DNA from: Folioceros fuciformis
Taxonomy: Eukaryota
Length of the DNA stretch: 32,285 nucleotides
Direction: 5' to 3'
Assembly: GCA_049999805.1 (NCBI GenBank)
Contig: JBNGIO010006328.1
Location: 332,407-364,691 of the forward strand
Under the pieces are notes generated by a model, which did no database searches, was not told where the DNA came from, and saw only the letters and a list, made by a program, of their open reading frames with translations. The position numbers and the translations under genes were made by a program. This document shows positions 1-31,800 of the stretch, piece by piece. Every line of letters starts with the position of its first letter. Position 1 is the stretch's first letter.

Positions 1-2156
1 CAGTAGAGCTCTCCAACCAGCACTGTCATGTTTGTACGGCATAGACTGCAACATGGTTTCTGCTTCTTCCAGTTTGCCTGATCGGCTGAGAACGTCCACC
101 ATGCAAGTGTAGTGCTCTCCTCTTGGTGTGATTCCATGCAAGTCCACCATCTCCCGGAAGTACTGCCGAGCCTCCTCTACTAGGCCCACATGACTGCAAG
201 CAGCCAGAAGACAAGTAAAGGTTGCAGAGTCAGGCTCCACTCCCCTTTCTCGCATTTCCTCGAAAAAATGCAGAGCCATGTCACACCTGTTATGGTGGCC
301 ATACCCTTTGATGAGAGCAGTCCACGACACAACATTCTTTTTCGTCAATCTGTCAAATACTGTGCGGCCTTCATCCACACTACCACACTTGACATACATG
401 TCTACCAGAGCATTCCCGACCTTGGTCTCTGATTCCAGCTCCCTTTCCAGAATTTGGGCATGGATTTGCTTGCCCTCTTTGATGGCCCCTATGCTACCAC
501 ATGCTTTAAGAATGCCCACAAACGTTATGTCATTAGCAGGAGATGTGCCATCCTGCTCCATGCTTCTGTACAATTCAATGGCTTCCTGACCAAGACCCTG
601 TTGGGCGTATCCTGTGATCATGGCACTCCATGACACAACATCTTTCTTGTTCAATCTATCAAACACAGAGCGCGCCTCCTCTACACACCCACATTTAGAA
701 TACATGTCCACCAGGGCGTTTCCAATGAAGACATCTGATTCAAGCCTCCTTCTTTGGATCTGTGCATGGGCTAACTTTCCATCCTGTAAGGCTGCCATGC
801 TGCCACAAGATTTCAAAACGCTGACAAAAGTATATTTATCCGGTGTGATGTCATGCTGCTCCATGCTTACGAATAACTGGAGGGCTTCTTGACCCAAACC
901 ATGTTGGGAATAGCCTGCTATCATTGCATTCCAAGACACCATATCTCTGGTTGGCAACCGATCAAAGACTACACGGGCATCCTCCAGACTTCCACATTTG
1001 CAGTACATGTCCACCAACGTATTAGCGACATGCACATTAGATTCAGAGCCACTGTCAATCACATCAGCGTGAACCAGTCTCCCAGACTTCAAATCTGCTG
1101 CACTGGCACAAGCTTTGAGCACAGCAACATACACGAACTCATCTGACAAAACACATTTCCGCAACTGCTGATACACTGTCACCGCCTGCTTGGGCTGACC
1201 GTTTTCCACATACGCTGAGATTATTGACGTCCAGCAGAATGCATTCGGTTTAGGCAGTTTGCTGAAAACTCTGGCCGCCTCCAGCAGATCCCCGTGGAAG
1301 CCATACATGCGTATGATGCGATTTGCCAGAAACATATTCAAATCATGCCCAGTGCTTACAGCAAGAGCATGAACTTGCTTGCCGAGCACCAAATCCTTGT
1401 TTGCAATACACCCTTGCAGGAGACGATACAACATGTCAGAGCTGATGCAGCTTTCGTGATGTTCCATCCTGTCCAGAGCATGAAAAGCCTTCTGGAGCTC
1501 TCCCTCATCACATAGTCTGCTCCAGGCTTCAAATACAAACACAGCGTCGTCATGCTCTGCCACCCTGCCCCGTCCAGAGAATGGCCAGAAGTGTCATAAC
1601 CAGGACGTTTGTAGTGCCCACCTGGTATCCAAGCAAGCATCCAGAACTGAAAATGCAGACGTAACAAGGGAGGGGCTCAGTGCTAGATTCCCACAGCTTG
1701 AATAAATGTTGAAAAGTACCTGCCATGACGTTTCTCCGACTGATAGCTAGCATCTTGAGCCCAGCGGTGACGCCGTGAGTTCTGTGTGCAGGAGATTTTC
1801 ATGCGATAGTGTTCATCAACCAAACAAGCGGCTAAGGGACCACTTAACTTCCCATCAAAAAACCAGGAGTACCTTGTTGAGCACCAAAACTTTCCACCAC
1901 GACTCTTGTGCAACTGACCCATCTGCAAGCGAGCTGGGACGTCAACAAACGAGACCCAGAACTCTCCAAAGCTGTTTGAATCGAATGCATCCATCCACAC
2001 GGAAGCACAAATGGTACCGTGGCGTTTATCTGTGCTCCGCAGACTGGACAGATGCCTGTACCAATCCTCCAGAGGGCTGTAAGGGCCTGATCTGCCTCGC
2101 ACGATGCTGGACACAGAGGCATGTCGGCCGAACGCACGGATACGGCCACTCCTCAT
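1..2156 (-). CDS. PLS-class pentatricopeptide repeat (PPR) protein, probable organellar RNA-editing factor; 3' end lies beyond the window start
   Basis: A minus-strand frame is open from 1593 to position 1 (absent from the ORF track because it has no stop in the window). It encodes P-L-S repeats (FCWTSIISAYVENGQPKQAV, VYVAVLKACASAADLKSG) and terminal L2/S2/E1 motifs (DSATFTCLLAACSHVGLVEEARQYF, EHYTCMVDVLSRSGKLEEAETMLQSMP, SAGWRALL). The 5' end is uncertain: first in-frame ATG at 1467, or upstream exon(s) from ATG 2156 (MRSGRIRAFGRHASVSS, transit-peptide-like) joined by a phase-compatible GT-AG intron 1719-1565. Confidence 0.88.
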
Positions 2157-11845: not shown

Positions 11846-14234
11846 CTACGACTCGGGATCTATTTTTCCACAGAAGAGCTTCTCGCAGGATTTCGGTGTC
11901 AACTGCTCCACACACGCAGGGCAATCGTCCCTCACACTTCTAAAAGAGTAGTAGGCAAAAAGTTCCTCAGGAAGGCCCTCCCCCTCAGCGGATAGGGAGT
12001 CCTGGGTTTCAGAAACTTCGATGTGTAGCCTCTGACGGCCAAGTTGCCTGAGCATGTGCCCAGCTGCATATGCAGGGGCACCTTCCACCCAGAAGTACTT
12101 CAGATGCGGCCCTGCTTGCGTGAAGGCCTTGGCCACCCCCTCAGCTGTGAAAGGACAGTGCCGAAACTCGAGTCGTTTGAGACTGCGGCAGCCCCGAAGC
12201 AGATCCTTCAACCCATCGTCGTCGTCCCCAGTGCAAACGAGGCAAATCCATTTCAATGTGGACCCACCGTTCTCCCCGATGTGGCGCAAACCGACATTCG
12301 TCAAACTGCCAGCCCTCATCGCCAGCGCCAGCTTAGTGAGCGACCTACACCTTTGCATAATATACAGAATGCCCTCGTCTATGGGAAGAAGCTGCGAGTG
12401 GTCCACCTTTTGGACTATGATCAAGCGCAAGTCGTTCAACTTCCTGCAGTTCTCCCCCAAAGCCTTCAACGCATCGTTGGACAATTTGGCAGCATAGACA
12501 GTGAGAAACTTCAGCTCGGGACACCCTCTTGCCAGCGCTGTTATGCCCTCCTGCGTGACCTCGTTCTCAGCATCCTCGTCTACGTCCAACCTCTCCACTC
12601 TAAGCTTCTTCAAGGACTTGCAATGCACAGCAATCACTCGAAGTCCGGCATCCCCAATCATGGGCCTCACCTGGTAAGAAGCAAATACGTCCCGTCAGTC
12701 AAACTCCAAATGAACCACACCACACCACACCACCATTCTGGACATCCTTCCTCACCTCGAGCGCCTCCAGGTGCTTGCAATGGGCAATAAGCTCCATAAC
12801 AGTCTCCCGACTGAGATCAGCCAACTTCAAGTCCAGGTTCCGGAGCGTCCCACTCAACGGCAGCAGCATGGGCAGATGGAAATCCGCAGCATCGTACAAG
12901 CCGGAGAGCGACACGAGCCTGTCAGGCAACAGCCGCCCAAACCTCCCGACCTCGTCTTCCGGAAACAAGCCCGTCCCAAGCTCCGTCAGCGCAGGAGCTT
13001 TAGCCAAAACCTCCCAACACGCGTCCTGCTGCTCCCACACCCCCAACCTCAGGCTCCTCAAACCAAGACAAGACCGAACAAGCAACCCCAAGTCCTCCAA
13101 CTCCGGCCCCTTGGCGTCGGGTTCATCATCGTCCCCCACCCCTACCGGGTCAGGATCCGGCAGCAGCAGCTCCTCCAGNNNNNNNNNNNNNNNNNNNNNN
13201 NNNNNNNNNNNNNNNNNNNNNNNNNNNNNNNNNNNNNNNNNNNNNNNNNNNNNNNNNNNNNNNNNNNNNNNNNNNNNNCCCCCCGCATGTCGTCCATCCG
13301 GCTGCTGGCCATGTCCAACGTCCTGAGCGACCTGCCACGCGTGCGCCACTCCAGCCCCCGTCACCCAGAGCAGCGAAGCAACTCAATTCCTTACCAACTA
13401 ACTCCGAGCAACCCAATTCCAGCCCGACTCCGGGCAACCCAGAATCCGACCGCCAATTCCCAACCCAACCCCGGGCACCGAAATTCCAAGCAACCCTCTT
13501 CCAAGCCAAGTCCAAGCAGCTCAATCCCAAACCCAACCCCGGGCTCCGGAATTCCAAGCAACCCACTTCTAAGCCAAGTGCAAGCGGCTCAATCCCAAGC
13601 CACTCCACTCCAATCCCATCCTGGACCCGACGGAAGCGTACCTGCAGGAGCGGGCGAGCATGAGGAGGCCGTGCGCGGAGAAGCCATCGCACTTATCCAG
13701 CACGAGGCGCTGGAGGGCGCGGCCGCATCCGGCCGCCAGGGTCTCCAAATCCGCGTCGCTCACGACAGCCCGCTTGAGGTAGAGCGACTCGAGGGCGGGG
13801 TACTTGGCAGCGATAGCGCGGATCCAATCCCCGGCCCGGCCGCCCCAGTCCGCTGCCAGCTGCTGGAACTCCATGGCGCGCGGGCGACACTTGAGCTTGA
13901 TGCGCTTGAGGCTGTGGAACCTCTGAGTGAGCCGGTGCGGGTACGCCGCATAGCAGTTGGCCACGGTGACCTCGGCCCGCACCCGGCCGTCCACGAAGCA
14001 CCAGTGCGAGCAAACCTCCGAGGCCGCGTGCAGCGCCGAGACGTCCGATTCCAGGTAGCGGAAGATGGTCTCCAGCAGCGGGCCGCGCAGGACCTGTTCC
14101 ACGGCCCCCTCCTCCTCGATCTCCTGCGGCACCGAGCGCAGCAGCCGCTTGGAACTGGCCATGGCAGCTGCAGGCCTCTGCTGCGGGCAAGGCTGGGGAC
14201 TCGGCTTGAAGCCCCGACACGCTCGCCTCATCAT
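11846..14234 (-). CDS. COI1: COI1-like F-box/LRR protein (jasmonate/oxylipin co-receptor family), 3 exons, exon 2 interrupted by an assembly gap
   Basis: Exons ~14234 (start uncertain: ATGs at 14456, 14234/14231, 14162)-13642, 13331-12756 and 12670-11846. Motifs VTVANCYAAYPHRLTQRF, LKCRPRAMEF..DWGG, LVLDKCDGFS, IGDAGLRVIAVHCKSLKKLRVER and the C-terminal LFAYYSFRSVRDDCP match COI1 (AYYSLAGQRTDCP) better than TIR1 (IYRTVAGPR). The two intron positions are those typical of COI1/TIR1 genes. Confidence 0.85.
13179..13278. other. Assembly gap (100 N)
   Basis: Run of 100 N inside exon 2 of the COI1-like gene. Confidence 1.
13462..13597. repeat. 68-bp tandem duplication in intron 1 of the COI1-like gene
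   Basis: aacccaaccccgggcaccgaaattccaagcaaccc...ctcaatccca at 13462 and a near-identical copy at 13530. Confidence 0.8.
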
Positions 14235-15570
14235 CTCCGCCCGCACCAGCTCCTCTTCCTGCTTCTGCTTCTGCTTCGGCTTCTGCTTCCTCTCCTCCTC
14301 GTCAGCATCGCACCTGCTCGGCTCCCGCCACCCGCATCCAGAGCCGCGCCCAGGCCCGCGAAGGACCAGGAGAGGAAGGAGACGAGGAGGCGAGGAGGCA
14401 AGGAGGCAAAGAGGGAAGTGAGGACCTTCCGTCGTCGTTGCAGAACCTGCCGGCATTCGTCGCCTTCTGGCTCTGTTTCTTCTCCTCGTCTTCCATCCAC
14501 CACGCGTCAGGCCGGGCCAGGCACTGTCGGATAGCCTTTACTCACGCAGATCCACCCCCCCCCGTCCTTCTCATAATCTCTCCCACAACGACTCGTCCGA
14601 TTAGATACATACTACGTAAACGACATAGCATTCTTTGGCGCAAGCTGCAAACAATGGCCTCCACCAGTACCACTTGGCTTTCCTCCCGCCCGAGCACTCT
14701 CTCGCTCTTACGCTGCGCCTCGTCTCGATTCGCGCAAACATTAAGTACCAAACATATCAGTAGTAAATTTAGTCAGTAAATAAACAAATGAAGTAAACAA
14801 AACTCTGTCGGGGTTATTTTTTTACTGGCTCCATAAGGTGAGGAGATATGTATCTCGTTTTCGTGTTCCGTGAGACAGCAGTCCACAGGAGTCCACGTAT
14901 GTCTATTATTTTGTGACATGTCGGGGAGTTAGATGCAGTATAAAAGTCAGGTTACAAGAAAAGAGGAGAGCGAACACGGAAACCCCAGGGCAGTAGGCAA
15001 GACGACAACACCCAGATTTATAATCGCTAGACCCTGCAAGGTGCAGCTGCTGCAACAGCGACCCGGGGGGACCAGATTGGTTCCCGCCGGGATGGAATAT
15101 GGAACCAACTCACTCGAAGTTCCGCTAGCAAGAAAGCTGGAAACGAATTACGAGATATTTGGCTTTCTTGTCGGTCGGGTCAGGGATGCGTTGCTGGCGA
15201 GAATCAGAGTTAGCATCTACCACGAATCCACGACTCCCCCGCCGACACCGCACTACTCACATGCTAAACTGTACATAGTACTGACAACGGAAGGCCACTC
15301 ACTCACCAGAGGGTTACGGAAACGATGACGACTCCCCATACTCCTTCGGACACACCTAGGATGAAGGATATTACTGAGCTTCCTTGGACCTGCTACTTGC
15401 CCGGTACTGGACTACCAATGAACACAGTTCTTGGAGCTCCCTCGCTTCCGTGTCGTACCACCACCAGTCACGGGCGGAACACTAGGCCGACACTCCTGTC
15501 AGCGTCGTGTGCAGCTCTACACAATCCTGAAGGGTGGAAGGAGGGCGACCTGCCTGACAGCCTGCGTGAA

Positions 15571-19660: not shown

Positions 19661-20213
19661 CAAAAGCAAAACTCAGATGGTTAGCCAAAGACCAGGCCCT
19701 CTACTTATAATTGTGATTTAGTGGTCTAATTACATGAATGAGTTTGTGGTCATGAACACCCACAATTAAAGCCCAAAATCTTTGTACCAAGGTGGTTCTT
19801 CAACCCTCAATGGACATAATGTTCAAACTCAAACTTGCAATAATGAAATCTAACTTCAACCAATCTATCTCCATGAACTCTTTTCCCCAGCACCAAATTC
19901 TTCACAGTGTGATGATCTAGGTACCTAGGCCTCACCAACATCCAACTCTTTTATAACATAGTAGTAACATTCCAAGCCAATCTCAATGAACTTCTTATTG
20001 GCTCATATCTTCGTGACCTTCTAGAATATAGTAAGATTCACTCGGCGTATGTGATGTCGGCATAAATACATAGGAGACCTAGCTTTTGAATCCTCAGAAA
20101 GAGGAAAAAGTGGCATGGTTTAGCTTGTGTTTTTTCAAACATCATATTGTATAATAGTCAAATCCTAACTTCAATTAACTTGGACATATGAACATCCTTT
20201 TACCAACACCAAA

Positions 20214-20304
20214 CTCGTTGTAGTATAGTGGTATGAGTACATAGACCGAACGTTCAATACCCGGACACTCGGCCTAGACCCGGGTTCGAATCCCGGCAAC
20301 GAGA
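20214..20304 (+). tRNA. Atypical tRNA-like gene, copy 1 (tRNA-Asp-type body, 35-nt anticodon arm; anticodon not assignable)
   Basis: Acceptor stem CTCGTTG/CAACGAG plus A; A box TAGTATAGTGG; D stem GTAT/GTAC; T arm CCGGG-TTCGAAT-CCCGG; long arm TAGACCGA-19 nt-TCGGCCTA; upstream CAA; T-runs at 20327-20337. Confidence 0.65.
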
Positions 20305-20503
20305 TTAATGGAAGTGGGTTAAAGCATTTTAGTTTTTCATGCATCATCCATTCAACTAATGGATTATACCTAAGTTAGATGTTCCTTTGATTAGATTGTC
20401 CAAGATGAAGAAGACCAAATCAATTTTCTGCATATGAATATCCATTTATGAACATCAAACTCTTTGTAGTAGATTACTATCACAAGTGATATGGAACAAC
20501 AAA

Positions 20504-20553
20504 CTCGTTGTAGTATAACGGTATGAGTACATAGGCCGAACGTTCAATACCCG
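20504..20553 (+). pseudogene. 3'-truncated tRNA-like copy 2
   Basis: ctcgttgtagtataacggtatgagtacataggccgaacgttcaatacccg, then jumps to the spacer; no B box or 3' acceptor strand. Confidence 0.75.
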
Positions 20554-20733
20554 AACGTTTAGTTTTTCAAACACCATCCATTAAACTAATAGAGTATACA
20601 TGAGTTAGATGTTCCTTTGATTAGATTGTCCAGGACAAAGAAGACCAAATCAATTTTCTACATATGAATATCCATTTATAAACATCAAACTCTTTGTAGT
20701 AGAGTCGTATCGCAAGTGGATTCGAACACCAAA

Positions 20734-20825
20734 CTCGTTGTAGTATAGTGGTATGAGTACATAGGCCGAACGGTTCAATACCCGTACGCTCGACCTAGAC
20801 CCGGGTTCGAATCCCGGCAACGAGA
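20734..20825 (+). tRNA. Atypical tRNA-like gene, copy 3 (36-nt anticodon arm)
   Basis: Same acceptor, D and T arms as copy 1; arm TAGGCCGA-20 nt-TCGACCTA; T8 run at 20843-20850. Confidence 0.65.
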
Positions 20826-21234
20826 TAGAAGTATAAAATTGCTTTTTTTTAAGCATCATCTACTTTAACTTCTTTTTTTAGTAACCCAACTGATTATAGA
20901 AGAAAAAGAATGCTATTAGAGTTTACAAAGGATGGTACTTAAGAACTTGTACCATGGCATAACCTGCCTACTATTGTATACCACCCATGGTACACTTAGG
21001 TACCATGGTATACCACCGAGGATGGATATGCATCATGGGACTTGGAATTTAATAACTTATACCATGGTATAGGTTCAAAGGGCATTCTTCCTTTCAGACA
21101 GTGCCCTTCCGAGGGCATCTTGCTCTAATTATGTTGTAAAGGGCATTCTTCCCATCTAAGTATGTTTCAAAGGGCATCCTTCCTTTCAGGCATCGCATCT
21201 AAGTAACGATTTGAGCACACGATGCATGTCCTTT

Positions 21235-21360
21235 GGAAAGTGGTCTTCCATCTCAACATCCTTATTGCATAACCTACAAATTTGAGACTCCACCATATGG
21301 CTTTTTGGCAAAGCCATATGTGTTCGGCTCAAGATTTTGAGATGATGAGACCCTAATCCA
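21235..21360 (-). mobile_element. Small remnant of a non-LTR (LINE) retrotransposon ORF2 C-terminal zinc-binding region
   Basis: Translation GLGSHHLKILSRTHMALPKSHMVESQICRLCNKDVEMEDHF resembles the RLxSHxLxIE...RICxxC...VEDExHF motif that follows LINE reverse transcriptases. Confidence 0.5.
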
Positions 21361-21448
21361 TAGTGGTATAAGTGCAGGGGCCAAATGTCACAACAAGAAG
21401 ATAAGTACAGGGGTCGAATGTCACAACAAGAAGACTCAACCCAGACCC
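21360..21448 (+). pseudogene. Two partial, tandem, degenerate fragments of the tRNA-like element (D arm + long arm)
   Basis: atagtggtataagtgcaggggccaaatgtcacaacaagaag then ataagtacaggggtcgaatgtcacaacaagaagactcaacccagaccc; both align to the interior of copy 4. Confidence 0.7.
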
Positions 21449-21463
21449 ATTTTGAACATTGAA

Positions 21464-21553
21464 CTCGTTGTAGTATAGTGGTATAAGTACATGGGTCGAA
21501 TGTCACAACAAGGACACTAGACCTAGACCCGGGTTCGAATCCCGGCAACGAGA
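21464..21553 (+). tRNA. Atypical tRNA-like gene, copy 4 (34-nt anticodon arm containing TGTCAC, Asp-like)
   Basis: CTCGTTG/CAACGAG plus A; A and B boxes intact; arm TGGGTCGA-ATGTCACAACAAGGACAC-TAGACCTA; T-runs at 21576-21585. Confidence 0.65.
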
Positions 21554-21750
21554 GTGACAAATCATTATGTCACGGTTTTGCTTTTATTTGTTCAACCTCA
21601 AACCTCATTAGTGGACCAATGTGTGAAAGGTAAAGGAAAATCCTAAATTTAATGAACATCCATAGTCAATAGCTAACAAAAAGCTAACTTTAATAAATAT
21701 TCATTAGCTAATATTTATTGATATTAGAAAAAGAAAATTTATATAAAAAC

Positions 21751-22008
21751 ATGTATATGTACATAACAGTCATAGAAAATGCCTATGTAGTAAGAATGTA
21801 TATGTACATAGCAGTCATAGAAAACGCCTATGTAGTAAGAATGTATATGTACATAACAGTCGTAGAAAACGCCTACGTAGTAAGAATGTATATATATACA
21901 TAGCAGTTGTAGAAAACGCTATGTAGTAAGAATGTATATGTACATAGCAGTCGTAGAAAAGGCCTATGTAGTAAGAATGTATATGTACATAGCAGTCGTC
22001 GACAACGT
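21751..22008. repeat. 45-bp minisatellite, ~5.7 copies
   Basis: Unit atgtatatgtacatagcagtcgtagaaaacgcctatgtagtaaga starting at 21751, 21796, 21841, 21886, 21932 and 21977. Confidence 0.95.
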
Positions 22009-24542: not shown

Positions 24543-25605
24543 TTAAGCGCCGGGGACGAAGTTGGTGGCGTAGGCCCAGGCATTGTTGACCGTGGGGTCG
24601 GCCAAGTGATCAGACAGGTTCTCAATGGGACCCTTGCCGGTGACAATGGCCTGGAAGTAGAAGCCGAACATCGAGAACATCGCCAGTCTGCCATTCTTGA
24701 GCTCTTTCACCTTCAACTCAGCGAAGGTGTCGGGGTCGTCAGCCAGACCCAAGGGGTCGAATGAGCCGCCGGGGTACAGGGGGTCAGTCACCTCCCCCAA
24801 CGGTCCGCCGGCCACACGGTAGGCCTCGACGGCTCCCATAAGGATCACCTGGGAGGCCCAGATTGCAAGAATGCTCTGGGCGTGGATGAGGCTTGGGTTG
24901 CCGAGGTAGTCCAGGCCTCCCTCAGAGAAGATCTGCGAGCCGGCCTTGAACCACACCGACTCCCCGAAGGTCACGCCGTTCTTGGCCAGCAGCTCGGGTG
25001 TGACGCACCCGAGAGTTCCAAGCATGGCCCAGCGGGCATGGATCACCTCCAGCTCCCGGTTCTTGGCGAAGGTCTCGGGGTCTGCGGACAAGCCCGCACT
25101 GTCCCAGCCGTAGTCGCCGGGGAATTCTCCCTTCAGGTATGAGGGAGTGTCCGCGGAGAAGGGGCCGAGCCACTTGGGACGGTCAGGGCCGTACCTGCAT
25201 GCAACGACATCAAACAATCTAAGATCGGCAAGCCATGACATCTCCTCAACGTCCACAATTCAATCCTCCTTCGACACACAAGATATCCGGTGCGCATCCT
25301 CGATATCCTACTCCAACTTCGTGCGCACCGCTAGACAACAATCAAGATCCGAGAGACGAGGAATCCACTACACATTCTAAACTCCTCACAAGTTCAATCT
25401 GCACTGCATTACGCACAATCCGGATCAAGATTTGAAAAAATTGACGGACAGAACGATACCAGATGCTGGATGGAGTGGATGCGCTCTTCCTCATCTGAAG
25501 CTTGGACTCGCTGCTGCCTGCAGCGCTGAGGATCTCGCTGCGCTGGCGGAAGACGCTCTGCCCGGCCAGGGCAGCGCTGGAGGCGCATGCAGTGGCGGCC
25601 GCCAT
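24543..25605 (-). CDS. LHCB2: Major LHCII chlorophyll a/b-binding protein, Lhcb2-like, 2 exons
   Basis: Exon 1 25605-25460 (transit peptide, then [12 protein letters not shown]), intron 25459-25195, exon 2 25194-24543 ([13 protein letters not shown]...[13 protein letters not shown]...[14 protein letters not shown]...[14 protein letters not shown]). The intron within SIW/YG is the Lhcb2-type position. Confidence 0.95.
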
Positions 25606-26772: not shown

Positions 26773-28224
26773 CTCAATTTGATCATAAAAGTTCTTTTTT
26801 CATGAGCTTTCTTGTCCAATCAATGCTGCCCTCAAAAGCACCCTTTGCAAGAAGTTCAAGTGCTCTAGTTTGAATTACGCCCCCCTCACCATTGGTTGGG
26901 CAAGCATAGCATTGATAGCTTCTCCCTCATCCCTCAACATTCTTAAGAGTTCTTCTCGCCCAAGTTCCTTCTTGATATAAGGTTTGCTTTTCAAACAATA
27001 CTTGAGAAACAAGAAGCTATTTGGGAGTTATTTGGGAACTAGGCCTTGAGTGCAGAACTAGTCTAACTTGGGGAGGTTTATATGTACTTGCTATGCTGCA
27101 GTCTTATTCTAATAGTTATTATATTTAATAAATTTAAAATTTTAAAAAGTTATAAATATAAACGTTGAACCTTTGTTAAAAAAATATTTCGGCGAAGACC
27201 TGTTGAATCAGCCCTCGGGTACGGTACTCGCGTGACAGGGAATCGGGATGGCCGTTTTTGCCGGATTGCAAGCAGTTAAGCGAGTCGACCTCCGTGCAAT
27301 GAATGACACTCGGCAGATGGACGACGTCACACAATTTGCCACCACCGGTAAACCGTTTGATGGACATCCAATGGGAGACGGCAACTGGGTATCGCCATCT
27401 CCCATTATTGGAATGAGCTTCTCTTCATAGCCTTCGTAGTTTCCTTTGGGTCGGGTGCGCCAGGCAACGCAAAGAGTGCAATACCTAAGCGACGCGCGTG
27501 TAGCCAAGGCAGCAAGCCACCTCATGCGGCTCCACCCCTGAAAGAAATAAGATTGACATCATGTAAGTCAATGGCCTGCGTATCAGATATTAAATTGATG
27601 ACAACAGATACTACACTCAAAGTTAGCCGAAAAGCTGTATTAAACTGATGCCGGCAGGTACTACGCTCAGAGTTAGCCAGAAGATCGAGAGAAGTACGAT
27701 TCCTCTGCGTTCTGCACTGAGGCCTTCTCTCGTTCCGGAGGCGCCGTATGCTCCTCACACAATATGGGTTATATGTCCGTGCACTTGAAACAAACAGCAA
27801 CACTCGGCCGTCTTCTGGAACTTTCCTTCTTCGTCTGCGGCTTCTTGTGCTCCAAGTTGAACAGCCATGGTTTGATTCCGTTCGAGAAGCGGGTTGAGAG
27901 CACGGTTGCCACCTCCTGTGAATGCCTCCACAGAGTTTGTTCGAAAGTTGGAACCCGTTCTCGTTGGACCTTTGTTGTGAACATAAATTCAGCTGTGTTT
28001 CCCAGATGCGGATTTAGATCAGGAGAAGCCACCCCTGGTTGCAGGCACGATGTTCTGAGCGCCCGGATAACACATGTGTGACGTGACCCACAAGAGGGCC
28101 TCGGAGAAAGGCATGGAGGCGGTGCGTGAAAGTGTCGAATTGCCTTCGCAACCTGAGAGTAACTGGAGTAAATGACCTGGTCCTACCTTGCATCCCACTG
28201 ACTGACCCAGCGTGCAATGGCTGT

Positions 28225-31200
28225 ATGGAGTGTGTTAAGAGGTCCTGTGCACCTGAATTTAAAGAGCCTACCTTGGTGGAGGACCGTGGCGAGAAAGCCG
28301 GATCCTCCAAGAGAATGTCCGGCTGGAGACCGATATTCCAGCGACGGTTGTGGGTTCGGCCCCACGAGGGCGTTCGGCTGAATGAGTTGTGCGAGTCAGC
28401 AGGAGCGGATGTGGCGGTCCCTGCTGTTGGGAGGGAGATGTGTGAATCCGTGAGACAGCTATGTCATGAGGGCCGTGCGCACGAGGCTGTTGAGGCTTTA
28501 GGAGTTTTGGTGGAGACAGAATTTTGTGTATCCAAAGCTCTCCTGTATGCTGTTCTGAAGCAATGTGTGGCCGAGAAGGATCTTGTTCTGGGTCGCCGCA
28601 TGCATGCCTTGATGGTCAAACAGGGGTATCAATCGGACACGTTCTTGGGCACCCATGTGCTGCGGATGTATTGTTCCCATGGCAGGTTGCAAGACGCGAT
28701 GGATGTGCTGGGATTGGTAGGGAGACCAGATGCCTTCATGTGGTGTGCCATAATTTCTGCGCATGTTAGACATGGGCAAAACAAGGTCGCTGTAGAGCTC
28801 TATCATCGGATGCGCAGTTCAAATGTGATGGCAGACGGTCATGTGTTTGCGACAGCCCTTCAGGCTTGTGCAAGGGGATGGGACTTGAGATCTGGGCAGC
28901 TGGTGCATGCGGATGTGTTGGCCAACGGTCTTGATACTGATTCGTTCATTTGTACTTGCTTGGTGGACATGTATGCGAAGTGTGGTAGCTTGCAGCATGC
29001 CCAGGTTCTGTTTGATGGACTTGAGCAAAAGAGTGTGGTGACGTGGAGTACCTTGATAGCAGGCTATTCTCAGCATGGCAAGGGACAGGAAGCCCTTCGT
29101 CTTTACAAGGCTATGCAAGATGACGGCATGGTGACACCTGATTCCGTGACATTTGTGTGCCTTCTGCAAGCATGTGCAAGTGTGGGCTCCCCAGCTTTGG
29201 AGAAGGGGAGGGAGCTGCACGCACAAGTACGAGGGCAAGGACTTGAAACTGATTTGTTTGTAGCAAACAGTCTGGTGAACATGTACTCAAAGTGTGGCAG
29301 CTTGCAAGAGGCTCGGGGTGTTTTTGACGCACTTGTTCAAAAGGATGTCGTGACATGGAACGCCATGGTAGCAGCATATTCTCAGCAGGGCATGGCCCTC
29401 GAAGCCTTTCATCTGTACACAGTCATGCAAGAGACATGCGTCACCCTAACTAATTCTGTAACATTTGTGTGTCTGCTGCAAGCATGTGCAAGTCTCGGCT
29501 TGAAAGGCTTGGGGATGGGACAGCAGCTTCATGCACAAATCAGAGAACGAAGACTTGATTCTGACGGGTTAGTTGCCAACGGTTTGGTACACATGTATGC
29601 AAATTGTGGCAGCTTGGAAGCCGCTCGGCGAGTTTTTGACGCATTCGGTGACAGAGATGTGGTAAAGTGGAATACCATGATAGCAGGATATTCCCAGCAG
29701 GGCATGGGCCAGGAAGCCCTTCATCTCTACAGTGTTATGCAAGAAGAAGGCATGGTAGCACCCGATCCCGTGACATTTGTGTCTCTCCTTCAGGCATGTG
29801 CAAGCATGGGCCGCCCAGCTTTGGAGACGGGGAAGCACCTTCATGCACAAATTAAAGAGCAAGGACACGAAACTGTTGCAGCTGTGGGCAATAGTTTGGT
29901 GAATATGTATGCAAAGTGTGGCAGCTTGCAAGATGCCCGCAGAGTGTTTGATGGACTCGTTCACAAGAATGTGGTGACGTGGAATGCTATGTTAGCAGGC
30001 TACTCCCAGCAGGGCATGGGCCACGAAGCCCTTGAACTGTACATGGCTATGCAGGACGAAGGGATCATGACACCCGATTCCGTGACATTTGTATCTCTTC
30101 TGCAGGCGTGTGCGAGCATGGGCCACTCAGGTTTGGAGATTGGGAAGCAGCTCCATGCGAAAATCCGAGAAGGTGGACATGAAACTGACATGCCTGTAGC
30201 CAACAGTGTGGTGAACATGTACGCAAAATGCGGGAGCGTTGAGGACGCTGAGAGAGTGTTTAATGGACTAAGTCACAAGAATGTGGTGACCTGGAATGCC
30301 ATGATAGCGGGGTGTTCCCAGCAGGGCAAGGGTGAGGAAGCCCTTGACCTTTATAGCATCATGCAAGAAGAGGGCCTGGTGCAACCCAATGCTGTGACAT
30401 TTGTGTGCCTCCTGCAGTCGTGTGCAAGTGTGGGGACCCAAGCTTTGGAGAAGGGGAAGCAGCTTCATGAGGAAATCAGAGAACAAGGACATGAGGCTGA
30501 TGTGTTTGTAGCCAACAGCTTGGTAAACATGTATGCCAAGTGTGGCAGCTTAGAAGACGCGCAGAGGGTGTTCGATGAGCTTAGTGAAAAGGATGTGGTG
30601 ACTTGGACTGCTCTAATCGCAGGGTATTCTCAACAAGGACGGGGCCAGGAAGCCCTTGATGTATACAGTGCTATGCAAGACGCCGGCACTGCTGCACCCA
30701 GTTCTCTGACATTTGTGCACCTCCTGCAGGCATGTGCAACTGTGGGCACGCCAGCATTAGAGATTGGGAAGCAGCTTCATGTGCAGATTAGGGAACAGGG
30801 ATGCCAAGCTGAGATGTTTGTGGCCAACAGTTTGGTGAACATGTATGCAAAATGTGGGAGCTTAGACGACGCACAGCGTGTGTTTGACGGACTTAGTGAG
30901 AAAGACGTTGTGACTTGGACCGCCCTAATTTCAGGGTACTTCCAGCAGGGCATGGGGCAGGAAGCCCTCCGCCTCTACGGCACCATGCAAGAAATCGGCA
31001 TCGCCGTACCAAACAGTGTGACATTTGTGTGCCTTCTCCATGCATGTGCGAATGTTGCAGCGCTGCATCTCGGCAGGCAGCTACACGCACAGATCGAAGA
31101 ACAAGGACTCCACTTGGATCCATTCCTAGCCTGCAGTCTGATAAACATGTACGGGAAGACTGGGAGCCTGGTCGAGGCGCAGGAATTATTTGATGCGTTG

Positions 31201-31800
31201 CCCGAGAGAGACATCATCGCGTGGAGTGCACTGATTGCAGGCTACGCGTGTCAAGGAGACAGTGAGGTCGTCTTCGACTTGGTCCAGAGAATGGAAGAGG
31301 ACGGCGTACGGCCTACTGACCTAACCTTTCTCAGTGTGCTGGTAGTATGCAGTCACGCAGGCCTGGTGAACAAGGGGAAAGAGCACTTCGAAGCTATGAG
31401 GTACCTCTACGGCATCGCTCCAAGACCGGAGCACTACAGCTGCATGGTGGATCTCTTGGGCCGTGCAGGCCACCTGGAGGAGGCAATAGCTTTTGTCAGG
31501 ACGATGCCTGTCCTGCCTTCGGCTGCAGAATGGCACACAGTCTTATCTGCCTGTCGGAAGTGGAGTAACGTGGAGCTGGGACTGCATGCTTTCCACCAAG
31601 CAGTGAAGCTGGACAACAGAGATGCCGCTGCTTACGTGTTGATGGCAAACATATACAAGAGTGCCAAGATGTGGGAGCAAGCACACCAGATGGAGGCCAG
31701 GAGACTAACAATGCGGGCCTGGAAGCAAGCTGGGCAGAGCTGGTGGACAGACACGGACGGACAGGTGCATAGTTTTTTGGTTGGAGATGAGAAGCATTAG
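28225..31800 (+). CDS. Intronless PLS-class PPR protein, ~30 motifs + E1-E2 + truncated WW-type E+ (no deaminase domain)
   Basis: The frame is open from 28126; the first ATGs are at 28225 and 28315. Ten P-L-S triplets, with a 312-nt period in the core (MYAKCG-type motif at 29593, 29905, 30217, 30529, 30841) and 37-aa L motifs. It ends P2-L2-S2, E1 (AAEWHTVLSAC), E2, then KQAGQSWWTDTDGQVHSFLVGDEKH*. Confidence 0.95.
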   Translation: MECVKRSCAPEFKEPTLVEDRGEKAGSSKRMSGWRPIFQRRLWVRPHEGVRLNELCESAGADVAVPAVGREMCESVRQLCHEGRAHEAVEALGVLVETEFCVSKALLYAVLKQCVAEKDLVLGRRMHALMVKQGYQSDTFLGTHVLRMYCSHGRLQDAMDVLGLVGRPDAFMWCAIISAHVRHGQNKVAVELYHRMRSSNVMADGHVFATALQACARGWDLRSGQLVHADVLANGLDTDSFICTCLVDMYAKCGSLQHAQVLFDGLEQKSVVTWSTLIAGYSQHGKGQEALRLYKAMQDDGMVTPDSVTFVCLLQACASVGSPALEKGRELHAQVRGQGLETDLFVANSLVNMYSKCGSLQEARGVFDALVQKDVVTWNAMVAAYSQQGMALEAFHLYTVMQETCVTLTNSVTFVCLLQACASLGLKGLGMGQQLHAQIRERRLDSDGLVANGLVHMYANCGSLEAARRVFDAFGDRDVVKWNTMIAGYSQQGMGQEALHLYSVMQEEGMVAPDPVTFVSLLQACASMGRPALETGKHLHAQIKEQGHETVAAVGNSLVNMYAKCGSLQDARRVFDGLVHKNVVTWNAMLAGYSQQGMGHEALELYMAMQDEGIMTPDSVTFVSLLQACASMGHSGLEIGKQLHAKIREGGHETDMPVANSVVNMYAKCGSVEDAERVFNGLSHKNVVTWNAMIAGCSQQGKGEEALDLYSIMQEEGLVQPNAVTFVCLLQSCASVGTQALEKGKQLHEEIREQGHEADVFVANSLVNMYAKCGSLEDAQRVFDELSEKDVVTWTALIAGYSQQGRGQEALDVYSAMQDAGTAAPSSLTFVHLLQACATVGTPALEIGKQLHVQIREQGCQAEMFVANSLVNMYAKCGSLDDAQRVFDGLSEKDVVTWTALISGYFQQGMGQEALRLYGTMQEIGIAVPNSVTFVCLLHACANVAALHLGRQLHAQIEEQGLHLDPFLACSLINMYGKTGSLVEAQELFDALPERDIIAWSALIAGYACQGDSEVVFDLVQRMEEDGVRPTDLTFLSVLVVCSHAGLVNKGKEHFEAMRYLYGIAPRPEHYSCMVDLLGRAGHLEEAIAFVRTMPVLPSAAEWHTVLSACRKWSNVELGLHAFHQAVKLDNRDAAAYVLMANIYKSAKMWEQAHQMEARRLTMRAWKQAGQSWWTDTDGQVHSFLVGDEKH

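What the first reader, a model, noticed from the sequence alone, without database searches (positions are those of the whole stretch)
20214..21553. Cluster of tRNA-like Pol III genes with an intact cloverleaf body but a doubled, variable anticodon arm
Seen: three full copies (20214-20304, 20734-20825, 21464-21553) plus truncated ones. They share a perfect 7-bp acceptor stem, D stem, identical T arm, A box (TAGTATAGTGG), B box (GGTTCGAATCC) and a downstream T-run. Similarity between copies ends about at the discriminator base, with no SINE-like tail. The anticodon arm is 34-36 nt instead of 17, with an ~8-bp stem around an 18-20-nt segment that can form a second 4-bp hairpin. Established: the body matches plant cytosolic tRNA-Asp (GTCGTTGTAGTATAGTGG...GACCCGGGTTCG...CCCGGCAACGGCG). 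Here both acceptor strands changed together (C1:G72, T2:A71), G73 became A73, and no standard 5-bp-stem register gives the invariant U33. Inference: a tRNA-derived ncRNA family selected for shape rather than decoding. It could be an RNase P/Z-processed scaffold displaying a variable loop, a tRNA-fragment source, or a non-canonical intron-containing tRNA. I do not recognise it as a described class.
Basis: partly seen in the sequence, partly recalled or inferred. Interest (0 to 1): 0.8.

Follow-up and report, generated by a model that had tools for sequence, protein, structure and literature searches.

The report
tRNA-like genes with overlong anticodon arm
A small cluster of plant genes copied from the aspartate tRNA keeps the tRNA's outer shape letter for letter but has a longer, variable hairpin in place of the decoding arm, so it probably encodes a tRNA-shaped RNA that cannot read codons; whether that RNA is made or does anything is untested.

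Summary
Three full copies (20214-20304, 20734-20825, 21464-21553, + strand) and several broken pieces lie in 1.35 kb of AT-rich spacer in a gene-dense land-plant window. All three score as tRNA in Rfam (41.5-43.3 bits) with a 27-34 nt insert in the anticodon arm.

Acceptor, D and T parts are identical in 56-57 of 57 positions. The arm is 66-86% identical, and the flanks are at shuffle level beyond about -20 and +1. The body matches a canonical plant tRNA-Asp, but G1:C72 became C1:G72, U2.G71 became U2-A71 and G73 became A73.

ARAGORN in intron mode gives three contradictory anticodons, all with G33, so these are not ordinary intron-containing tRNAs. I found no shared tail, no target-site duplications and no sign of high copy number, so a SINE or LTR-borne tRNA-like is unlikely.

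Best reading (confidence about 0.5): a low-copy, tRNA-Asp-derived Pol III tRNA-like family. Its acceptor/T/D "top half" is under purifying selection, and its arm is kept as a hairpin but cannot decode.

No transcript or cross-species evidence could be obtained. Silent, decaying tDNA duplicates remain a serious rival. Interest is moderate.

The parts
20214..20304 (+). Copy 1, full tRNA-like gene (91 nt). A box 20221-20231; arm 20242-20276; B box 20283-20293; A73 at 20304.
   Evidence: Rfam tRNA 41.5 bits. ARAGORN: tRNA-???, or Val-aac with an 18-nt 'intron'. Fold.
20734..20825 (+). Copy 2, full tRNA-like gene (92 nt). Arm 20762-20797.
   Evidence: Rfam tRNA 42.3 bits in E-value mode; not listed in the gathering run. 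ARAGORN finds it in intron mode only, as Leu-caa. Body identical to copy 1 in 57 of 57 positions.
21464..21553 (+). Copy 3, full tRNA-like gene (90 nt). Arm 21492-21525. The loop starts ATGTCAC (21500-21506), followed by 11 nt that pair with it.
   Evidence: Rfam tRNA 43.3 bits. Fold -29.8 kcal/mol, z = -2.79. Body identical to copies 1 and 2 in 56 of 57 positions.
20504..20556 (+). Truncated copy: 5' half plus the first part of the arm, with no T arm. The A box is damaged (TAGTGG has become TAACGG).
   Evidence: 47 of 50 positions identical to copy 1.
20460..20473 (+). 5' stub of a decayed copy (CTCTTTGTAGTAGA), inside the 230-nt tandem unit.
   Evidence: (D6).
20690..20703 (+). Second 5' stub, in the second 230-nt unit.
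20328..20788 (+). Two tandem 230-nt units (89% alike). Each carries a stub plus a 5' half; the second runs into copy 2.
   Evidence: (D2).
21360..21463 (+). Decayed copy abutting copy 3, with a 33-nt internal duplication of the D-arm/arm segment (21368-21434) and a degraded T-arm-like end.
   Evidence: (D5).
20327..20337 (+). T runs (T4 and T5) 23-33 nt after copy 1: likely Pol III terminator.
20843..20850 (+). T8 run 18 nt after copy 2: likely Pol III terminator.
21576..21585 (+). Two T4 runs 23-32 nt after copy 3, preceded by a small hairpin (21554-21573).

Best explanation
These are members of a small, lineage-restricted family of RNA polymerase III genes that descend from the cytosolic tRNA-Asp gene and no longer decode.

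Shown:
- Intact internal A and B boxes, no internal T4 run, and T-run terminators.
- An intact acceptor stem, D arm, T arm and the elbow nucleotides (G18 G19, T54 T55 C56).
- An anticodon arm replaced by a 34-36-nt irregular hairpin that differs between copies.
- A body that stays identical while the arm and flanks diverge.

Inferred:
- Each gene is transcribed from its own type-2 promoter.
- The precursor is cut by RNase P (PRORP in plants) and tRNase Z and receives CCA, because those enzymes read the acceptor/T-arm 'top half' and elbow, which are exactly the conserved parts.
- The product would be an RNA of about 90 nt that cannot pair with codons.
- It has lost the aspartate identity set. 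All copies have A73 instead of G73 and G10-C25 instead of G10.U25. Copies 1 and 2 have no GUC anticodon loop.
- The cluster grows and decays by local tandem duplication (birth and death). Only copies that keep the whole body stay unmutated.

What the RNA does is unknown. My best guess is a tRNA-shaped small RNA that engages tRNA-handling proteins, working like mascRNA-type tRNA mimics, rather than a translation adaptor.
For: Rfam. All 3 copies pass the tRNA gathering score (41.5-43.3 against 29 bits), with the whole cloverleaf aligned except for a 27-34-nt insert in the anticodon arm.

Conservation gradient.
- Body: 28/28 and 29/29 identical (c1-c2); 27/28 and 29/29 (c1-c3 and c2-c3).
- Arm: 30/35, 23/34 and 23/35 identical.
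- Flanks from -60 to -21 and from +1 to +60 are no better than shuffles: 84, 121 and 170 of 300 shuffles, and 39, 124 and 116 of 300 shuffles, reach the observed identity.
- Body against arm: Fisher p = 0.0066, 5e-5 and 2e-5.
- The positions that distinguish the family from canonical tRNA-Asp (C1, C25, A59 T60, A71 G72 A73) are also identical in all 3 copies. Gene conversion from ordinary tRNA-Asp genes therefore cannot explain the sameness.
- The truncated copy, which could not work, carries 2 changes inside the A box.

Fourth sequence type. A paralog seen in DNA contigs of the same organism runs at depth 31.8 against about 8-10 in X1, and 19.2 against about 5 in X2. All 14 of its listed differences lie in the D loop and arm, and the 3' body is unchanged.
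- Its G20765>T is matched by C20794>A, turning a G-C pair into U-A.
- Its C20766>T turns the C.A mismatch of copy 2 into U-A (pairing read by me).

Structure. RNAalifold recovers the cloverleaf with a long arm by itself, and 2 of 29 pairs (33:60 and 38:55) change on both sides.

Promoter and terminator. A and B boxes are intact. CAA motifs stand at -4 and -10 of copy 1 and at -4 (none at -10; others at -21 and -48) of copy 2. T runs follow all 3 copies. CAA and poly-T are the usual plant tDNA signals (PMC11700998, passages).

Not decoding. ARAGORN gives three different anticodons, all with G33. The aspartate determinants are G73, G34, U35, C36 and C38 (PMC9976931, passages).
Against: - No transcript was seen and no relative in another species was found, so function is inferred from paralogs of one genome only.
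- Only 3 sequences plus 1 partly seen paralog. On the 3-copy alignment, 367 of 500 shuffles reach the observed covariation, so the formal count is uninformative.
- Each copy has one non-standard pair in the arm helix.
- Copies 1 and 2 fold no better than shuffles: z = -1.27 and -0.96.
- Copy 3 lacks an upstream CAA near the start.
- The copies sit among decayed fragments, as expected of a dying tandem array.
- In a run that looks bisulfite-treated (C>T 72, G>A 62), the contig over copy 1 shows only 12 changes for 23-24 C or G. About 76-91% are changed in four neighbouring contigs, where the strand is read as in the full report. This weakly suggests that copy 1 is cytosine-methylated, as silent tDNA clusters are.
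- 3 of the 17 differences of the paralog contig are not listed, and they may lie in its 5' acceptor strand.
Confidence: 0.5

Rival explanations
1. Silent by-products. This is a decaying tandem cluster of tRNA-Asp pseudogenes with no RNA-level function. The body stays uniform through recent duplication and concerted evolution within the family, or because only the DNA-level Pol III/TFIIIC-binding boxes matter. The arm changes fast because it is a methylated, CpG-rich hairpin.
For: - Three intact copies are interleaved with at least 4 broken or decayed pieces and tandem sub-duplications in 1.35 kb.
- The arm differences are mostly transitions at or next to CG or CCG.
- A bisulfite-like run shows about half of the C/G of copy 1 unconverted, against about 76-91% converted in four neighbouring contigs.
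- PlantRNA 2.0 files thousands of such 'tRNA-like/pseudogene' sequences in plant genomes (preprint 10.1101/2021.12.21.473619, passages).
- Clustered plant tDNAs can be silenced (PMC12308677, search listing only).
Against: - Flanks of copy 3 against copies 1 and 2 are at shuffle level while the body differs at 1 of 57 positions, so recent duplication alone does not fit.
- Conversion tracts would not skip the 34-nt arm that lies between the two body halves.
- The acceptor stem and discriminator, which are not promoter elements, are as conserved as the boxes.
- The body has 7 CG dinucleotides, none mutated in any full copy.
- Two or three arm pairs change in a compensated way.
Confidence: 0.3
2. 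A real but unusual intron-containing tRNA. At least copy 3 would be a tRNA-Asp(GUC) gene with an 11-nt intron at the canonical 37/38 site and an anticodon stem of 8 instead of 5 bp. Copies 1 and 2 would be its mutated paralogs.
For: - In copy 3 the 7 nt after the 8-bp stem are ATGTCAC. That is U33, G34 U35 C36, A37 and C38, or 6 of 7 identical to the canonical loop of L001.
- The next 11 nt end in GACA, which pairs with UGUC, like the anticodon-intron helix of eukaryotic pre-tRNAs.
- 11 nt is the usual plant tRNA intron length: means 11.5-17 (PMC11700998, passages).
- Copy 3 folds best: z = -2.79, with 2 of 200 shuffles as good.
Against: - The TGTCAC match is not significant in an unpositioned test: 90 of 1000 shuffles.
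- An 8-bp anticodon stem would lengthen the adaptor by 3 bp and is not known in cytosolic elongator tRNAs (recalled).
- A73 replaces the aspartate determinant G73.
- Copies 1 and 2 have C33 and an extra T (ACGTTCA, ACGGTTCA), yet their bodies are untouched.
- ARAGORN in intron mode does not find this model and gives Ser-act for copy 3.
- No intron-containing tRNA-Asp was found in 69 angiosperm genomes (PMC11700998, passages).
- Embryophyte introns are confined to tRNA-Tyr and tRNA-eMet, plus Ile in Ginkgo (PlantRNA 2.0 preprint and PMC13578239, passages).
Confidence: 0.08
3. Part of a mobile element: the tRNA-related head of a SINE, or a tRNA-like sequence carried in the LTRs of a miniature LTR retrotransposon (Helenus/TRIMp3).
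For: - The sequence is tRNA-derived with conserved A and B boxes and a non-functional anticodon region, as in SINE heads and Helenus LTRs (PMC10886601, passages and section 3.5).
- Several copies lie close together with tandem sub-repeats.
- Helenus is reported from one plant, a lycophyte (same paper).
Against: - Similarity stops at the discriminator base, with no shared body, tail, poly-A or simple repeat.
- The longest words shared by the 30 nt on either side are 4-5 nt, reached by 188, 398 and 206 of 500 shuffles, so there are no target-site duplications.
- There is no repeat pair beyond the tRNA-like part with a short internal region between. The spacings are 290, 230 and 730 nt, against LTR 120 + internal 85 for the plant Helenus.
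- A T run follows each copy within 18-29 nt, so a Pol III transcript could not reach a second LTR.
- Contig depth points to fewer than about 10 copies at 80% likeness or more.
- The full 3' acceptor strand is kept, which SINE heads usually lack (recalled).
Confidence: 0.07

Closest known systems
Plant cytosolic tRNA-Asp(GUC) genes
   Same: - Positions 2-19 and the segment from the variable loop through the T stem into the acceptor strand are identical to a canonical plant tRNA-Asp (L001:2106-2177, minus strand).
- Same A box and the same kind of type-2 Pol III gene, with an upstream CAA and a downstream T run.
   Different: - The anticodon arm is 34-36 nt instead of 17, with no standard loop.
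- C1:G72, U2-A71 and A73 replace G1:C72, U2.G71 and G73.
- G10-C25 replaces G10.U25.
- The D loop is 2 nt longer and the T loop reads TTCGAAT instead of TTCGATC.
- Rfam score is 41-43 against 60 bits.
'tRNA-like / tRNA pseudogene' class of PlantRNA 2.0
   Same: [quoted passage not shown] These copies would be filed there.
   Different: That class is defined by exclusion and is mostly high-copy debris in large genomes. Here a low-copy set keeps every body position while the arm and flanks diverge.
mascRNA-type tRNA mimics (tRNA-like small RNAs cut out by RNase P and RNase Z and given CCA; recalled, no call)
   Same: A cloverleaf-like RNA with an intact acceptor/T 'top half' and a non-decoding anticodon arm. 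This is the working model proposed here.
   Different: mascRNA is cut from a long Pol II transcript in vertebrates and has a shortened arm. These are free-standing Pol III genes in a plant with a lengthened arm. Processing has not been tested here.
Intron-containing plant tRNA genes (tRNA-Tyr, tRNA-eMet)
   Same: - Paralogs have identical 'exon' parts and a variable middle.
- Copy 3 has an 11-nt stretch after A37 that pairs with the anticodon.
- The acceptor end C1:G72 + A73 equals the eukaryal tyrosine set (PMC9976931, table passage).
   Different: - Variation also affects the stem that would be exon.
- There is no U33 in the standard register.
- The three copies give three different 'anticodons'.
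- The body is Asp-like, not Tyr-like.
tRNA-derived SINEs and Helenus (TRIMp3) LTRs
   Same: A tRNA-derived Pol III promoter module with a non-functional anticodon region (PMC10886601).
   Different: No tail, no target-site duplications, no LTR/PBS/PPT layout and low copy number. The complete acceptor stem is kept.
Silenced tandem tDNA clusters of Arabidopsis (Ser-Tyr-Tyr, Pro)
   Same: Local tandem amplification of Pol III genes, with possible cytosine methylation (PMC12308677, listing only).
   Different: Those clusters hold canonical, decodable tRNA genes in regular arrays of many units. This is an irregular 3-copy cluster of non-decoding derivatives.

Membership tests
Canonical decoding tRNA (tRNA-Asp) | Matches the tRNA covariance model above threshold. 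| tested here: met
   41.5, 42.3 and 43.3 bits against a gathering score of 29. The score comes from the body only, with a 27-34-nt insert.
Canonical decoding tRNA (tRNA-Asp) | 5-bp anticodon stem and 7-nt loop with U33 and a purine at position 37. | tested here: not met
   The arm is 34-36 nt. In the standard register, position 33 is G in all 3 copies.
Canonical decoding tRNA (tRNA-Asp) | Aspartate identity set: G73, G34, U35, C36, C38 (PMC9976931). | tested here: not met
   A73 in 3 of 3 copies. GUC with C38 is seen only in copy 3, in a register shifted by 3 bp.
Intron-containing tRNA | Removing one stretch at 37/38 leaves a standard anticodon stem-loop. | tested here: not met
   Not met for copies 1 and 2. 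Copy 3 fits only with an 8-bp stem.
Intron-containing tRNA | Paralogs share one anticodon that agrees with the body's isotype. | tested here: not met
   ARAGORN gives Val-aac, Leu-caa and Ser-act on an Asp-like body.
Intron-containing tRNA | A spliced mature RNA exists. | not testable with these tools
   No RNA run holding the locus was available.
tRNA-derived SINE | tRNA-related head with A and B boxes. | tested here: met
tRNA-derived SINE | tRNA-unrelated body and a LINE-like, A-rich or simple-repeat tail shared by copies. | tested here: not met
   Downstream identity is 33-38 of 65-69 columns, which is shuffle level.
tRNA-derived SINE | Target-site duplications. | tested here: not met
   The longest shared flank words are 4-5 nt, reached by 188-398 of 500 shuffles.
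tRNA-derived SINE | Many dispersed copies. | tested here: inconclusive
   Contigs of the same organism show only one further sequence type, at about 3.5 times single-copy depth. No whole genome could be searched.
Helenus / TRIMp3 | tRNA-like sequence inside two LTRs that flank a short internal region with PBS and PPT. | tested here: not met
   Direct repeats do not extend beyond the tRNA-like part plus about 10-20 nt upstream, and a T run follows each copy. PBS complementarity was not searched. The published plant consensus is in closed supplements.
RNase P/Z-processed tRNA mimic (mascRNA-like) | Intact acceptor stem, T arm and D/T elbow nucleotides. | tested here: met
   7-bp acceptor stem, 5-bp T stem, and G18 G19 and T54 T55 C56 kept in 3 of 3 copies.
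RNase P/Z-processed tRNA mimic (mascRNA-like) | Precise 5' and 3' cleavage and CCA addition in vivo. | not testable with these tools
   Needs RNA data or enzyme assays.

The most novel reading that the evidence does not exclude
The family is a chargeable but non-decoding tRNA. Its acceptor end has been re-specified from the aspartate set (G1:C72, G73) to exactly the eukaryal tyrosine set (C1:G72 + A73; PMC9976931, table). The aspartate determinants G73 and U25 were removed in all copies and the GUC anticodon loop in copies 1 and 2, and the anticodon arm became a free, variable hairpin. Such an RNA could be tyrosylated by cytosolic TyrRS. It could then serve outside the ribosome, for example as an amino-acid donor, a synthetase or transport decoy, or a carrier for the variable hairpin. 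That would be a free-standing cellular counterpart of the tyrosine-accepting tRNA-like ends of plant viruses.
Probability: 0.06. Interest if true: 0.8.

Novelty: new variant of a known kind. Interest (0 to 1): 0.4.

Why it matters
Plant genomes hold thousands of 'tRNA-like' sequences that databases set aside as probable pseudogenes because function cannot be told from sequence. This cluster is a clean, low-copy case. The parts read by tRNA-processing enzymes are frozen, while the decoding arm is replaced and drifts with partial compensation.

If the RNA is made, it would be a rare example in plants of a free-standing Pol III tRNA mimic. It would also be a handle on what tRNA-shaped RNAs do outside translation. 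The switch of the acceptor end to the tyrosine identity set gives one concrete, cheap test.

If the RNA is not made, the locus is an ordinary dying tDNA array. The conservation pattern would then need a DNA-level explanation.

Tried and rejected
Searches for relatives:
- Whole-genome search: no genome is held for this window.
- Strict two-part pattern in metagenome contigs: 0 hits.
- Relaxed pattern in metagenome contigs: 1 hit. It is an ordinary plant tRNA-Asp that matched only because of a 42-nt local duplication.
- Same relaxed pattern in prokaryote genome contigs and in viral contigs: 0 hits each.
- Earlier findings of this scan: nothing for this genome, this sequence or look-alikes. The word search returned only phage and bacterial tRNA-Asp cases of no bearing.

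Expression:
- No RNA holder was listed for the stretch.
- The one run guessed to be RNA (X4) laid only on 21237-21289, a repeat, and not on the copies. This says nothing about expression.

Literature:
- The 18-nt 5' end of the RNA appears in no paper text.
- Searches for extended or long anticodon arms in tRNA-like RNAs and for tRNA-like genes in non-seed plants found no description of this kind.

Other ideas tested:
- Type-3 promoter: no plant USE-like motif lies near the copies. There are 13 matches in the window against 13.9 expected, none between 16.4 and 31.6 kb.
- Arm as a duplicated T arm: local alignment is only marginal, with 65, 44 and 70 of 1000 shuffles as good. Rejected as unproven.
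- Residual likeness of the arm to the canonical Asp anticodon arm: none for copies 1 and 2 (613 and 970 of 1000 shuffles). Copy 3 has only the TGTCAC word (90 of 1000).

Lineage: the best PPR relatives are at most 50% identical and come from lycophyte, fern, conifer, moss and liverwort. I can say only that this is a land plant with no close relative in that database.

Neighbouring ORFs at 17-19.5 kb and 22.5-23.3 kb have no Pfam match.

The sub-threshold Rfam hits (SpF41 sRNA and others) only reflect the tRNA shape plus a T run.
Full report
**Setting.** The window is gene-dense land-plant nuclear DNA.
- Two long PLS-type PPR genes: 1-1563 (minus strand) and 28126-31800 (plus strand).
- A chlorophyll a/b-binding protein gene: 24543-25256 (minus strand).
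- An ion-channel fragment, a TIR1-like F-box ORF and a U2 snRNA gene (27450-27644, minus strand).
- The best PPR relatives are at most 50% identical and come from lycophytes, ferns, a conifer, mosses and a liverwort. No closer lineage can be named.
- No whole genome is held.
- The finding lies in a 1.5-kb spacer of 39% G+C between regions of about 50% G+C.

**Observation.**
- Three full copies stand at 20214-20304, 20734-20825 and 21464-21553 on the + strand. Their 27-nt 3' segment occurs exactly three times, against none in 100 shuffles.
- Rfam's tRNA model matches all three end to end (41.5, 42.3 and 43.3 bits; gathering score 29). It has to skip 27-34 nt in the anticodon arm.
- RNAfold and RNAalifold both return a cloverleaf: a 7-bp acceptor stem, 4-bp D stem, 5-bp T stem and a long arm made of an 8-bp outer helix and a short inner helix.
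- On the 3-copy alignment, 69 of 72 pair cells are standard pairs. The three exceptions are one per copy, in the arm.
- A box, B box and elbow nucleotides are intact. No copy has an internal T4 run, and T4-T8 runs begin 18-29 nt downstream of each.
- Around the copies lie a 5' half with a damaged A box (20504-20556), two 5' stubs, two 230-nt tandem units and a decayed, internally duplicated copy abutting copy 3.

**Origin.** A relaxed pattern scan of metagenome contigs fetched a canonical plant tRNA-Asp(GUC) (L001:2106-2177, minus strand; Rfam 60.3 bits). Aligned to it:
- The copies share positions 2-19, and the run from the variable loop through the T stem into the acceptor strand.
- They differ at 1:72 (G:C became C:G), 2:71 (U.G became U-A), 73 (G became A) and 25 (U became C, so G10.U25 becomes G10-C25).
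- The D loop has two extra nucleotides, two T-loop positions differ, and the whole anticodon arm differs.

**Conservation pattern.**
- Body: 57/57 identical (c1-c2) and 56/57 (c1-c3 and c2-c3).
- Arm: 30/35, 23/34 and 23/35 identical.
- Last 20 nt upstream: 12/20, 12/21 and 10/20. These share AACACCAAA in copies 1 and 2.
- Everything further out is no better than shuffled sequence.
- Body against arm: Fisher p = 0.0066, 5e-5 and 2e-5.
- The family-specific body positions are as constant as the Asp-like ones, so conversion from ordinary tRNA-Asp genes does not explain it.
- The truncated copy has two changes in 28 body positions.

**A fourth sequence type.** DNA contigs of the same organism add a fourth type at about 3.5 times single-copy depth.
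- It aligns to 20721-20826 with 17 differences and 4 gaps.
- The 14 listed differences all lie in the D loop and arm, and the 3' body is unchanged.
- Three differences are unlisted. They may lie near the contig end, that is, in the leader or the first acceptor bases.
- Read against the pairing of copy 2, G20765>T goes with C20794>A (G-C to U-A), and C20766>T repairs the C.A mismatch with A20793.
- Among the three window copies, pairs 33:60 and 38:55 each run C-G, C.A, U-A.
- This is suggestive of a maintained helix. It rests on very few sequences, and the shuffle control on three rows is uninformative: 367 of 500 shuffles reach the observed value.

**Is it a decoding tRNA?**
- In the standard register, position 33 is G in all three copies.
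- ARAGORN in intron mode returns Val-aac (18-nt intron), Leu-caa (8-nt intron at 32/33) and Ser-act (17-nt intron). In default mode it returns tRNA-??? and Asp with GTC at an impossible place. This refutes an ordinary intron-containing tRNA.
That is 6 of 7 identical to the canonical Asp loop, and it is followed by 11 nt whose GACA pairs with UGUC.
- That looks like a relic of an Asp anticodon loop with a canonical-site intron on an overlong stem. The word match is not significant without positional weighting (90 of 1000 shuffles).
- Copies 1 and 2 have C33 and an extra T.
- The literature passages I read report no intron-bearing tRNA-Asp in 69 angiosperm genomes (PMC11700998). They restrict embryophyte introns to Tyr and eMet, plus Ile in Ginkgo (PlantRNA 2.0 preprint; PMC13578239).

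**Is it mobile?**
- There is no shared tail, and no flank words beyond chance: 4-5 nt, reached by 188-398 of 500 shuffles.
- There is no LTR-like repeat beyond the tRNA-like part, and a terminator follows each copy.
- Depth shows no sign of many copies.
- Helenus (TRIMp3) elements carry tRNA-like sequences in LTRs and are known from one lycophyte (PMC10886601, passages and section 3.5). The layout here does not fit. The published consensus is in supplements I could not see.

**Mechanism.**
- Shown: the promoter and terminator anatomy, the cloverleaf, the selective gradient, and the loss of decoding and of aspartate determinants (identity sets from PMC9976931, passages).
- Inferred: transcription by Pol III, end-processing by RNase P and tRNase Z, and CCA addition. 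The conserved parts are the ones those enzymes read (established knowledge, recalled).
- New lead: the acceptor end now equals the eukaryal tyrosine set, C1-G72 + A73 (PMC9976931, table). The listed eukaryal sets show this only for Tyr. This is a lead for a charging test, not evidence of charging.

**Against activity.**
- No transcript evidence could be had.
- Run X3 behaves like bisulfite data (C>T 72, G>A 62). Its contig over copy 1 has 12 changes for 23-24 C or G.
- Other X3 contigs over the stretch: 20 of 22 and 32 of 36-37; 9 of 11 and 46 of 54 if these two contigs are G>A type, as their listed changes indicate; and 61 of 80-81 in a contig that also covers copy 3.
- This is a weak hint of methylation, because I could not see the positions.

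**Verdict.** The interpretation 'selected for shape, not decoding' is the best reading, but it is only partly supported. I rate the family a new variant of a known kind (tRNA-derived Pol III tRNA-like genes) and of moderate interest. It would rise sharply if a processed or charged RNA, or orthologs with covariation, were found.

Noticed in passing
window 27450-27644 (-): A full-length U2 spliceosomal snRNA gene (Rfam 82.6 bits) lies 6 kb from the cluster, between the chlorophyll a/b-binding protein gene and a PPR gene. No USE-like motif was found near it at 2 mismatches or fewer.
   Followed up: partly
window 21751-22007: A 45-nt tandem repeat (5.7 copies, 90% alike) lies directly downstream of copy 3. 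Its nature is unknown.
   Followed up: no
window 20940-21300: A stretch between copies 2 and 3 has repeated GGTACCATGG-type palindromes and three 27-31-nt repeats (21074-21192). Parts of it (21168-21224, 21237-21291) match other contigs of the same organism at 84-87%, including one contig of a run guessed to be RNA. It is probably a dispersed repeat or MITE.
   Followed up: partly
L001 2105-2260 (-): In a plant-like metagenome contig, an ordinary tRNA-Asp(GUC) gene is preceded by an exact 42-nt tandem duplication of its upstream leader plus its first 22 nt. This small parallel shows that 5' stubs arise beside tRNA-Asp genes.
   Followed up: partly
window 20100-21551, run X3: One DNA run of the same organism shows almost only C>T and G>A differences (72 and 62), as bisulfite data would. 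Conversion looks lower over copy 1 than over its flanks.
   Followed up: partly
window 12771-14534 (+) and 13569-14456 (-): A 587-aa open frame without any Pfam match overlaps, on the opposite strand, an ORF with a TIR1-type (transport inhibitor response) domain. The long frame is probably a shadow of the G+C-rich F-box gene.
   Followed up: no
window 21554-21585: The 3' trailer of copy 3 forms a 6-bp hairpin directly before the T runs. Copies 1 and 2 have no such hairpin.
   Followed up: no
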